DNA from: Escherichia coli
GTDB taxonomy: Bacteria; Pseudomonadota; Gammaproteobacteria; Enterobacterales; Enterobacteriaceae
NCBI RefSeq assembly: GCF_001677475.2
Contig: NZ_CP015229.1
Direction: 5' to 3' (one strand)
DNA length: 64,000 bases
The notes under the pieces were generated by a model. It saw nothing but the letters and a program-made list of their open reading frames with translations. It was not told where the DNA came from and made no database searches. A program made the position numbers and the translations under genes. How positions within the stretch are numbered: position 1 is the first letter of the stretch; each line of letters begins with the position of its first letter. This document shows positions 1-193 of this stretch, in pieces.

Positions 1-193
1 AGAGCGCAGTGTCCTTGTAGCTGGCCCATGCAATATCCAGCGCGCGATCTTTTACCACCGTAAATGCCAGTCCCGCACCAGTACGGACATCAAACGCTTC
101 TGTACCCTTTGCTCTGCCACTACGTAACTCATAGTGTTTAATTCCGGCAACCTGCGAGAGATCGCCAATCCACGACCAAATTTCGTTTTTCAT
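1..193 (-). CDS. Aldose 1-epimerase-like (galactose mutarotase superfamily) protein, 5' part only; gene runs off the window start
   Basis: Minus-strand frame starts at ATG 191-193 (ATGA overlap with upstream kinase stop) and stays open to position 1; begins MKNEIWSWIGDLSQVAGIKHYELRSGRAKGTEAFDVRTGAGLAF...; family assignment from memory only. Confidence 0.4.
   Translation of the reverse strand, partial: MKNEIWSWIGDLSQVAGIKHYELRSGRAKGTEAFDVRTGAGLAFTVVKDRALDIAWASYKDTAL

What the first reader, a model, noticed from the sequence alone, without database searches (positions are those of the whole stretch)
1..193. Edge-truncated epimerase-like gene translationally coupled to kinase A
A minus-strand frame starts at ATG 191..193, which shares bases with the kinase A stop (ATGA overlap), and stays open to the window edge. 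The operon therefore continues beyond position 1 and the island is larger than what is visible. The 64 residues seen loosely resemble aldose-1-epimerase/mutarotase-like proteins, which is weak evidence.
Basis: partly seen in the sequence, partly recalled or inferred. Interest (0 to 1): 0.35.

Follow-up and report, generated by a model that had tools for sequence, protein, structure and literature searches.

The report
Cut-off tagE gene of tagatose operon
The window edge cuts through tagE, the last gene of the published E. coli D-tagatose operon tagYABCDE; it encodes a mutarotase-fold protein of the DUF4432 family whose biochemical role has never been tested, so the finding is real but ordinary.

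Summary
A minus-strand ATG at 191-193 shares ATGA (190-193) with the stop of the PfkB kinase gene, and the frame stays open for 64 codons to the window edge.

A public contig that matches window 1-13486 with one mismatch shows the gene whole. It is 348 aa with no stop or frameshift, and is followed by a 91-nt hairpin-containing spacer and convergent accC. The operon therefore runs 854 nt past the edge and the island about 0.95 kb, with no further genes.

The locus is the accC/yhdT island, published as the E. coli Nissle tag cluster (tagYABCDE plus tagR and tagK). It is present in 1421 of 5426 complete E. coli genomes, and the edge gene is tagE.

Full-length TagE matches Pfam DUF4432 (349 bits), not PF01263. 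It has a galactose-mutarotase fold and keeps residues that align with GalM His104, His175 and Glu309.

My best mechanism, which is inferred, is a sugar-ring interconverting enzyme. It would supply the furanose or open form of D-tagatose to the 6-kinase TagD, analogous to RbsD with ribokinase. TagE's function has not been tested.

Novelty: already known. Interest is low.

The parts
1..193 (-). 5' fragment of tagE (codons 1-64 plus one base of codon 65), encoding a 348-aa DUF4432 / mutarotase-fold protein. It is the last gene of the tagYABCDE operon, and 854 nt of it lie beyond the window edge.
   Evidence: Open frame. Identical 64 aa in full-length orthologues. Full-length ORF in the near-identical contig L018:13294-14340. 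DUF4432 at 349 bits.
190..193 (-). ATGA overlap of the tagD stop (TGA, 192-190) and the tagE start (ATG, 193-191); the inferred site of translational coupling.
   Evidence: Conserved in E. coli alleles and in Citrobacter.
201..206 (-). Shine-Dalgarno-like GGGAAG inside the 3' end of tagD, 7 nt upstream of the tagE ATG.
   Evidence: Read from the sequence. It is a moderate match to the consensus. In Citrobacter the corresponding bases read CAGGAC.
190..1152 (-). tagD ('kinase A'): PfkB-family D-tagatose kinase, 320 aa.
   Evidence: PfkB at 144 bits. NCBIfam TagKinase at 414 bits, against a cut-off of 420. Deletion of the Nissle orthologue abolishes growth on tagatose (PMC9720028).
1174..2163 (-). 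tagC: ABC transporter permease (BPD_transp_2).
2164..3663 (-). tagB: sugar ABC transporter ATPase with two ABC domains, 499 aa.
3724..4614 (-). tagA: periplasmic sugar-binding protein (Peripla_BP_4), 296 aa.
4650..5486 (-). tagY: class II tagatose-bisphosphate aldolase and first gene of the operon. In this window it is 278 aa, because an 18-bp in-frame deletion removes 6 aa present in the 284-aa form.
5829..6659 (+). tagR: DeoR-family tagatose-responsive repressor, divergent from the operon.
   Evidence: PMC12226905.
6670..7626 (+). tagK ('kinase B'): second PfkB sugar kinase; function not established.
   Evidence: PMC9720028.

Best explanation
Bases 1-193 (minus strand) are the start of tagE, the sixth and last cistron of the D-tagatose-inducible operon tagYABCDE. 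This operon lies in the accC/yhdT island of Escherichia.

tagE is transcribed from the single Ptag promoter upstream of tagY. That has been shown for the Nissle orthologue. Its translation is probably coupled to termination of the kinase gene tagD through the ATGA overlap, helped by a moderate Shine-Dalgarno sequence. That step is inferred.

The product is a 348-aa cytoplasmic protein of family DUF4432. It has a galactose-mutarotase beta-sandwich fold and keeps an Arg/His/His/Glu set that aligns with the catalytic residues of GalM.

The most likely mechanism is acid/base-catalysed opening and reclosure of the sugar ring of free D-tagatose after ABC uptake. D-tagatose is mostly pyranose, and in a 2-ketohexopyranose O6 is the ring oxygen. 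TagD, however, phosphorylates O6. A ring-interconverting enzyme would therefore supply the furanose or open form that the kinase can use. It would be a non-homologous functional analogue of RbsD with ribokinase, FucU in the fuc operon and GalM next to GalK. The substrate and the physiological role are inferred, not shown.
For: Identity of the locus:
- Window 1-4700 matches 1421 of 5426 complete E. coli genomes at 95-99% identity. The genes are in the order aldolase, binding protein, ATPase, permease, kinase, 'aldose 1-epimerase family protein', then accC.
- Contig L018 equals window 1-13486 apart from one mismatch and carries the intact 348-aa gene.
- This is the published cluster. All six genes are induced more than 40-fold on tagatose, and deleting the cluster abolishes growth (PMC9720028).
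- dRNA-seq found one transcription start 64 nt upstream of tagY and none internal; the gene is named tagE (PMC12226905).

The gene is functional:
- dN/dS is 0.15-0.30 among E. coli alleles. Against Citrobacter dN is 0.116 with dS saturated.

Fold and active site:
- DUF4432 scores 349 bits.
- The AlphaFold model has pLDDT 91.9.
- Foldseek gives 3TY1 at TM 0.90, then galactose mutarotases and hexose-6-phosphate mutarotase at TM about 0.6 with E from 1e-9 to 1e-14.
- R87, H116, H192 and E295 are invariant in 35 homologues.
- In a joint MAFFT alignment H116 pairs with GalM H104 and H192 with GalM H175. E295 pairs with YphB E253 and YihR E273, which share a column with GalM E309.

Genomic context of homologues 43-57% identical:
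- The gene always sits in sugar-catabolism clusters, in the place a mutarotase would occupy.
- It lies directly after a PfkB kinase in L002 and L014.
- It lies beside a lyxose-isomerase-like cupin in L014 and L017.
- It lies with a fucose-isomerase-like gene, an FGGY kinase and a class II aldolase in L004 and L015.
- It lies between an ABC transporter and a dehydrogenase plus lactonase in L005.
- No RbsD/FucU or PF01263 protein is listed in any of these loci.

Chemistry and precedent:
- D-tagatose is predominantly alpha-pyranose (PMC12429656).
- The K-12 gal operon ends with overlapping galK and galM.
- RbsD is a ribose pyranase encoded with ribokinase (PMC3146418).
Against: - No biochemical or genetic test of TagE exists. 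The authors list its function as untested.
- Alpha- and beta-proteobacterial tagatose clusters have the same transporter and kinase without a DUF4432 gene. A ring-interconverting enzyme is therefore not obligatory for a tagatose 6-kinase.
- The catalytic-residue equivalence rests on a MAFFT alignment at 10-17% identity, not on a superposition. hhalign profile comparisons found no significant alignment, and GalM itself was locally misaligned at the Glu.
- Several further invariant arginines (R50, R160, R304) could indicate an anionic substrate such as a sugar phosphate.
- Translational coupling is inferred from geometry only.
- Induction of tagD and tagE (more than 40-fold) is much lower than that of the first three genes (more than 1000-fold).
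Confidence: 0.55

Rival explanations
1. TagE is a sugar-phosphate anomerase. It would act on D-tagatose 6-phosphate, which can only be furanose, and interconvert the alpha and beta anomers. This would feed the anomer-specific PfkA, which makes tagatose 1,6-bisphosphate. It would be analogous to the hexose-6-phosphate mutarotases YeaD and yeast YMR099c.
For: - Hexose-6-phosphate mutarotase structures (2CIR, 2CIQ) are among the fold matches.
- Several invariant arginines (R50, R87, R160, R304) could bind phosphate.
- The step after TagD depends on host PfkA.
Against: - Homologues 43-57% identical sit next to isomerases and dehydrogenases that act on free sugars, such as the dehydrogenase plus lactonase in L005 and the fucose-isomerase-like genes in L004 and L015. 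No common sugar phosphate exists across those clusters.
- The fold matches to free-sugar mutarotases are as good or better.
- Furanose phosphate anomers interconvert quickly without an enzyme (general knowledge).
Confidence: 0.17
2. TagE is a broad-specificity mutarotase whose real substrate is another sugar. The cluster's native substrate may not be D-tagatose, or TagE may be carried along with little role in tagatose use.
For: - Growth of Nissle on tagatose is slow: 120-h cultures at 40 mM.
- The DUF4432 subfamily stays 43-57% identical across clusters for evidently different sugars.
- The gene is absent from other tagatose-kinase clusters.
Against: - The gene is induced more than 40-fold by tagatose, as part of a TagR-controlled operon that responds to tagatose.
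- Linkage and the ATGA overlap with the tagatose kinase gene are conserved in Escherichia and Citrobacter.
- The gene is under purifying selection.
Confidence: 0.15
3. TagE is a tagatose-6-phosphate 4-epimerase analogue that makes fructose 6-phosphate. It occupies the position of the unrelated TagE of Sinorhizobium and Agrobacterium, and would give a second route into glycolysis.
For: - It has the same position in the cluster as the Tag 6-P epimerase gene of alpha- and beta-proteobacteria.
- The pfkA requirement does not by itself separate the two routes. This is my inference: fructose 6-phosphate also needs phosphofructokinase.
Against: - The sequences are 'highly divergent' according to the authors.
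- Pfam finds only DUF4432.
- The fold and conserved residues are those of ring-opening mutarotases, which do not invert C4. As far as I know, no C4 epimerase with this fold is known.
- The cluster carries its own tagatose-bisphosphate aldolase.
Confidence: 0.03
4. The edge ORF is a decaying or non-functional remnant in this strain.
For: - The same window carries an 18-bp deletion in tagY.
- One B2 strain (H305) has the homologue annotated as a pseudogene.
- A 493-aa PfkB-DUF4432 fusion record exists (P0017).
Against: - The near-identical contig has an intact 348-aa ORF.
- The 64 aa visible in the window are identical to those of the functional alleles, and the DNA differs from them only at synonymous sites.
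- dN/dS is well below 1.
Confidence: 0.03

Closest known systems
tagE (ECOLIN_RS18670 / HW372_RS02470) of the E. coli Nissle 1917 tagYABCDE D-tagatose operon (PMC9720028; PMC12226905)
   Same: - Same gene: last cistron after the tagatose kinase gene, with the same accC/yhdT insertion site and gene order.
- E. coli alleles of the region are about 98-99.7% identical in DNA.
- The 64 visible residues are identical to five full-length E. coli TagE proteins, including strain N3.
   Different: - The window comes from a lineage whose core genes are at most 98.7% identical to any of 5426 complete E. coli genomes.
- Its tagE allele differs from E. coli N3 at 8 of 348 residues.
- Its tagY carries a 6-aa deletion.
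3TY1, putative aldose 1-epimerase KPN_04629 of Klebsiella pneumoniae (structural-genomics entry, DUF4432)
   Same: - Same Pfam family and same fold: TM 0.90, phmmer E 8.5e-33, profile E 2e-57.
- The LHG, YH.N.G and GxEP motifs are shared.
   Different: - Only about 26% identical.
- No function is assigned, and I did not examine its genomic context.
Galactose mutarotase GalM (PF01263; E. coli, L. lactis 1L7K, human 1SNZ)
   Same: - Beta-sandwich fold.
- His/His/Glu, plus an Arg next to the GalM 'NR' motif, align.
- It is encoded as the last operon gene and overlaps the preceding kinase gene, galK.
   Different: - No detectable sequence-profile similarity.
- TM is only about 0.6.
- GalM acts on aldoses; the sugar here is a ketose.
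RbsD (D-ribose pyranase) and FucU of the rbs and fuc operons
   Same: - Proposed same physiological logic. A CUT2-type ABC transporter is paired with a PfkB kinase that phosphorylates the hydroxyl used for pyranose ring closure, and with an enzyme that interconverts ring forms.
- The parts correspond as TagA/B/C/D/E to RbsB/A/C/K/D.
- In L004 and L015 the DUF4432 gene occupies the position FucU holds in the E. coli fuc operon.
   Different: - Unrelated fold and family (RbsD_FucU).
- The analogy is functional only and is untested for TagE.
TagE, tagatose-6-phosphate 4-epimerase of Sinorhizobium meliloti / Agrobacterium tumefaciens tagatose clusters
   Same: Same gene name and the same relative position after the tagatose kinase gene.
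   Different: - An unrelated protein with different chemistry: C4 epimerisation of a sugar phosphate, leading to fructose 6-phosphate.
- The shared name is a trap for annotation.

Membership tests
E. coli tag cluster (tagYABCDE-tagRK island at accC/yhdT) | Gene order aldolase, binding protein, ATPase, permease, PfkB kinase, DUF4432, with divergent DeoR regulator and second kinase | tested here: met
   Window ORFs and Pfam/NCBIfam assignments. Same order in annotated E. coli N3 and in L018.
E. coli tag cluster (tagYABCDE-tagRK island at accC/yhdT) | Insertion between accC and yhdT | tested here: met
   The yhdT-panF-prmA-dusB-fis side lies within the window. The accC side is seen in near-identical contig L018 and in all 1421 E. 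coli genomes that carry the island.
E. coli tag cluster (tagYABCDE-tagRK island at accC/yhdT) | Induction by D-tagatose and requirement for growth on it | not testable with these tools
   Shown for strain Nissle 1917 only (PMC9720028; PMC12226905).
Pfam DUF4432 (PF14486) | Score above the gathering cut-off of 32.5 bits | tested here: met
   The 64-aa fragment alone scores 26.1 bits, below the cut-off. The full-length protein from the near-identical contig scores 348.8 bits and the E. coli N3 orthologue 349.1 bits.
Aldose 1-epimerase family (Pfam PF01263, GalM/YphB/YeaD/YihR) | Match to the PF01263 profile | tested here: not met
   No PF01263 hit even at E<=10. hhalign against GalM or a four-paralogue profile gave probability below 1%.
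Galactose-mutarotase-like fold superfamily | Mutarotase beta-sandwich fold | tested here: met
   Model pLDDT 91.9. Foldseek probability 1.00 to many mutarotase structures, with E from 1e-9 to 1e-14 and TM 0.56-0.65.
Galactose-mutarotase-like fold superfamily | Catalytic His/His/Glu (E. coli GalM His104, His175, Glu309) in equivalent positions | tested here: inconclusive
   H116, H192 and E295 are invariant and align with the GalM-family residues in a MAFFT alignment. No structural superposition was possible, and GalM's own Glu was locally misaligned.
Galactose-mutarotase-like fold superfamily | Mutarotase (ring-opening) activity | not testable with these tools
   No assay exists for any DUF4432 protein. 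A literature search for DUF4432 found two incidental mentions only.
RbsD/FucU pyranase-mutarotase family | RbsD_FucU domain | tested here: not met
   The Pfam scan returns DUF4432 only. I considered this family as a functional analogue only.
Tagatose-6-phosphate 4-epimerase (alpha-proteobacterial TagE) | Sequence relationship to the characterised epimerase | not tested
   No direct comparison was run. The authors of PMC9720028 call the sequences highly divergent, and the Pfam scan gives no family other than DUF4432.

The most novel reading that the evidence does not exclude
TagE would be the first DUF4432 protein with an assigned function: a ketose ring tautomerase (D-tagatose pyranose to furanose or open-chain form) built on the GalM fold. 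It would make the abundant pyranose form of tagatose available to a 6-kinase. It would then be a convergent counterpart of RbsD, and would define DUF4432 as a fourth family of sugar mutarotases spread across many bacterial sugar clusters.
Probability: 0.35. Interest if true: 0.35.

Novelty: already known. Interest (0 to 1): 0.12.

Why it matters
For the scan, this closes the question of what lies beyond the window edge. It is the remaining 854 nt of a named, annotated gene, followed by the core gene accC; no further island genes are hidden.

The cluster has some wider relevance. It lets B2-phylogroup and related Escherichia grow on the sweetener D-tagatose, and its promoter is already used as an inducible system in strain Nissle.

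The only open scientific point is the biochemical role of TagE and of family DUF4432, which has a solved structure but no assigned function. A simple enzymatic test could settle it and would improve annotation of the many homologues found in sugar clusters (632 significant database hits).

Tried and rejected
- hhalign of the DUF4432 alignment against E. coli GalM alone, and against a GalM/YphB/YeaD/YihR profile, gave no significant alignment. The residue mapping therefore had to rely on MAFFT.
- An hmmsearch of the DUF4432 profile against PDB sequences at E<=10 found only 3TY1, with no bridge to GalM.
- NCBIfam has no model for the protein.
- A literature search for DUF4432 returned two incidental mentions and no functional study.
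- A search for tagatose together with mutarotase, furanose and pyranose found no paper proposing a tagatose mutarotase.
- Exact-protein look-up with the kinase allele gave contigs that were at best 99.7% identical (12 mismatches in 4152). The rarer tagY deletion allele led to the near-identical contig.
- The alternative ORFs overlapping 1-193 on either strand are not supported as genes: no significant family match. No Rfam family matched in 1-8000.
- The internal promoter-like site near the tagD/tagE junction (9 of 12 matches) is no more than shuffles give. It is also contradicted by dRNA-seq in Nissle, which found no internal transcription start.
- The cheaper exact-protein look-ups answered the question.

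Full report
**Observation.**
On the plus strand, bases 190-193 read tcat. On the minus strand this is ATGA, with an ATG at 193-191 and the TGA stop of a 320-aa ORF (190..1152) at 192-190. Translating 193 to 2 on the minus strand gives 64 codons with no stop: MKNEIWSWIGDLSQVAGIKHYELRSGRAKGTEAFDVRTGAGLAFTVVKDRALDIAWASYKDTAL. A GGGAAG Shine-Dalgarno-like motif lies at 206-201, 7 nt before the ATG.

The upstream ORF is a PfkB kinase (144 bits; NCBIfam TagKinase 414 bits against a cut-off of 420). The 64-aa fragment alone gives DUF4432 at E 4.4e-6 (26.1 bits), under the 32.5-bit cut-off. The description in the finding is therefore accurate.

**What the locus is.**
Window 1-4700 matches 1421 of 5426 complete E. 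coli genomes at 95-99% identity. In E. coli N3 the annotated order is:
- tagatose-bisphosphate aldolase
- substrate-binding protein
- ABC ATPase
- permease
- sugar kinase
- 'aldose 1-epimerase family protein' (348 aa, WP_096984024.1)
- accC, convergent

A DeoR regulator, a second kinase and yhdT-panF-prmA-dusB-fis lie on the other side.

This is the 8.5-kb accC/yhdT island published as the D-tagatose utilisation cluster of E. coli Nissle 1917. It was found in 93% of completely sequenced B2 genomes (95% of B2 strains in a second panel of 110 strains). All six genes are induced more than 40-fold on tagatose. Deleting the cluster or the kinase abolishes growth, and the epimerase-like gene ECOLIN_RS18670 is explicitly untested (PMC9720028).

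A 2025 paper names the genes tagYABCDE, tagR and tagK. It shows by dRNA-seq a single transcription start 64 nt upstream of tagY with no internal starts, and shows that TagR is a tagatose-responsive repressor (PMC12226905). The edge gene is tagE.

**Beyond the edge.**
The window's core genes are at most 98.7% identical to any complete E. coli genome, so the source strain is not in that collection.

An exact-protein look-up with the window's unusual tagY allele returned a Logan contig, L018. It equals window 1-13486 with one mismatch in 13,486 bases. There the gene is an intact 348-aa ORF (L018:13294-14340).

It is followed by 91 nt containing the hairpin AACGCCGGGC-N11-GCCCGGCGTT and then by convergent accC. 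The hairpin has a U-run only in the accC direction (-24.2 kcal/mol, z -2.9). In the tag direction it folds at -21.6 kcal/mol (z -2.0) without a U-run.

The same junction is present in all 1421 island-bearing genomes and in four other contigs. The operon therefore continues for 854 nt and the island for about 945 nt, and no further island gene is hidden.

**Is the gene alive?**
The window fragment differs from other alleles only at third codon positions, and its 64 aa are identical in all five alleles. dN/dS among E. coli alleles is 0.15-0.30. Against the Citrobacter orthologue (83% aa identity, same island, same accC/yhdT site) dN is 0.116 with dS saturated, and the ATGA overlap is conserved.

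The N-terminal residues G10, S13, Q14 and G17 are conserved in homologues only 43-57% identical. This fixes the start codon.

**What the protein is.**
- *Family.* Full-length TagE matches DUF4432 (PF14486) at 349 bits and nothing else. PF01263 does not appear even at E<=10, and NCBIfam has no model.
- *Solved relatives.* The only solved relative by sequence is 3TY1, a Klebsiella structural-genomics 'hypothetical aldose 1-epimerase' (E 8.5e-33; profile E 2e-57).
- *Fold.* An AlphaFold model built from 35 homologues has pLDDT 91.9. Foldseek places it on 3TY1 (TM 0.90). It then matches B. subtilis, L. lactis, human and yeast galactose mutarotases, E. coli YphB and yeast hexose-6-phosphate mutarotase, at TM about 0.55-0.65 with E from 1e-9 to 1e-14.
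- *Conserved residues.* Invariant residues include R50, D53, R87, H116, R160, N179, H192, N194, Y290, E295 and R304.
- *Mapping onto GalM.* In a MAFFT L-INS-i alignment with E. coli GalM, YphB, YeaD and YihR, H116 aligns with GalM H104 and H192 with GalM H175. E295 aligns with YphB E253 and YihR E273, which share an invariant column with GalM E309. R87 falls next to the GalM 'NR' arginine.
- *What those residues do.* From established work on GalM (Thoden and Holden; Beebe and Frey; my knowledge), they are the acid/base and sugar-positioning residues.
- *Limits.* Profile-profile comparison could not confirm the mapping, and no superposition was possible. I rate the equivalence as likely, not proven.

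**Context of relatives.**
I examined eight loci from homologues 43-57% identical. The gene is:
- directly after a PfkB kinase (L002, with a mannitol-dehydrogenase-family gene; L014, with a lyxose-isomerase-like cupin and a CUT2 ABC transporter)
- next to a lyxose-isomerase-like gene (L017)
- within clusters carrying a fucose-isomerase-like gene, an FGGY kinase and a class II aldolase (L004, L015)
- between an ABC transporter and a dehydrogenase plus lactonase (L005)
- next to a DHDPS-family aldolase (L003)
- in one uninformative setting (L016)

None of these loci lists an RbsD/FucU or PF01263 protein. The DUF4432 gene thus sits where a free-sugar mutarotase would be expected.

**Mechanism.**
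*Shown by others for the Nissle orthologue:*
- co-transcription from Ptag
- induction by tagatose
- the route tagatose to tagatose 6-phosphate to tagatose 1,6-bisphosphate to triose phosphates, with PfkA supplying the second phosphorylation

*Shown here:*
- gene identity and completeness
- family, fold and conserved residues
- purifying selection
- a conserved overlap with tagD

*Inferred:*
- Translation of tagE is coupled to termination of tagD through the ATGA overlap.
- TagE catalyses ring opening and reclosure of free D-tagatose.

The rationale for the second inference is chemical. D-tagatose is predominantly alpha-pyranose (PMC12429656). In a 2-ketohexopyranose, O6 closes the ring. The tagatose kinase makes the 6-phosphate, so it can only use the minor furanose or open forms.

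The tag operon is built like the ribose operon, whose RbsD is a ribose pyranase encoded with ribokinase (PMC3146418):

| Role | tag operon | ribose operon |
|---|---|---|
| Binding protein | TagA | RbsB |
| ATPase | TagB | RbsA |
| Permease | TagC | RbsC |
| PfkB kinase | TagD | RbsK |
| Ring-form accessory enzyme | TagE (proposed) | RbsD |

The gal operon of K-12 likewise ends with overlapping galK and galM.

**Rivals.**
- A tagatose-6-phosphate anomerase. Several invariant arginines and the fold match to hexose-6-phosphate mutarotase favour it. The free-sugar contexts of close homologues argue against it.
- A broad mutarotase with another preferred sugar.
- A functional substitute for the alpha-proteobacterial Tag-6-P 4-epimerase. 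This is unlikely for this fold.
- A decaying gene. The evidence contradicts this.

**Verdict.**
The feature is an annotated, published gene, so its novelty is 'already known'. Only the biochemical role of TagE and DUF4432 remains open, and it can be tested with simple assays.

Noticed in passing
window ~4996 (within tagY, 4650-5486, minus strand): The tagatose-bisphosphate aldolase gene has an 18-bp in-frame deletion relative to E. coli N3. It removes six residues (VQRTQI) just before the conserved [12 protein letters not shown] segment, giving 278 aa instead of 284. The exact 278-aa protein is on record in 41 index blocks, against 258 for the kinase allele, so it is a lineage allele and not a sequencing error. 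Whether the aldolase still works is unknown.
   Followed up: partly
window 7700-12000 and the whole window: The core genes yhdT-panF-prmA-dusB-fis are at most 98.7% identical to any of 5426 complete E. coli genomes. The source is therefore a divergent Escherichia lineage not represented there. PMC9720028 reports the tag cluster in both clade I genomes it examined. A Logan contig from run ERR10434813 is essentially identical to the window.
   Followed up: partly
protein P0017, E. coli record: A 493-aa protein carrying both PfkB and DUF4432 domains is 97% identical over 55% of TagE. It is most simply a tagD-tagE fusion made by an indel at the ATGA overlap, or an assembly error.
   Followed up: no
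L018:14341-14431 (just beyond window position 1): The 91-nt spacer between tagE and convergent accC holds a perfect 10-bp GC-rich hairpin. It has a U-run only on the accC side, so it looks like the accBC terminator. The tag operon has no canonical intrinsic terminator of its own. In island-free genomes the megablast match stops exactly at the accC stop codon.
   Followed up: partly
window 1-7640 versus 7641-64000: The island part has 45.7% G+C against 49.9% for the rest of the window. tagC (42.0%), tagA (44.4%) and tagB (45.1%) are the lowest. This agrees with the horizontal-transfer argument in PMC9720028.
   Followed up: yes
window 5829-6659 and 6616-7626 (plus strand): The longest ORF for the second kinase, tagK (336 aa from ATG 6616), overlaps the end of tagR by 44 nt. 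Gene callers choose later starts, giving 318 aa in L018 and 311 aa in E. coli N3. The true start is unresolved.
   Followed up: no
gene nomenclature (PMC12226905 versus PMC9720028): The name tagE now denotes two unrelated proteins. One is the DUF4432 protein of E. coli and the other is the tagatose-6-phosphate 4-epimerase of Sinorhizobium and Agrobacterium. This invites annotation transfer errors.
   Followed up: yes
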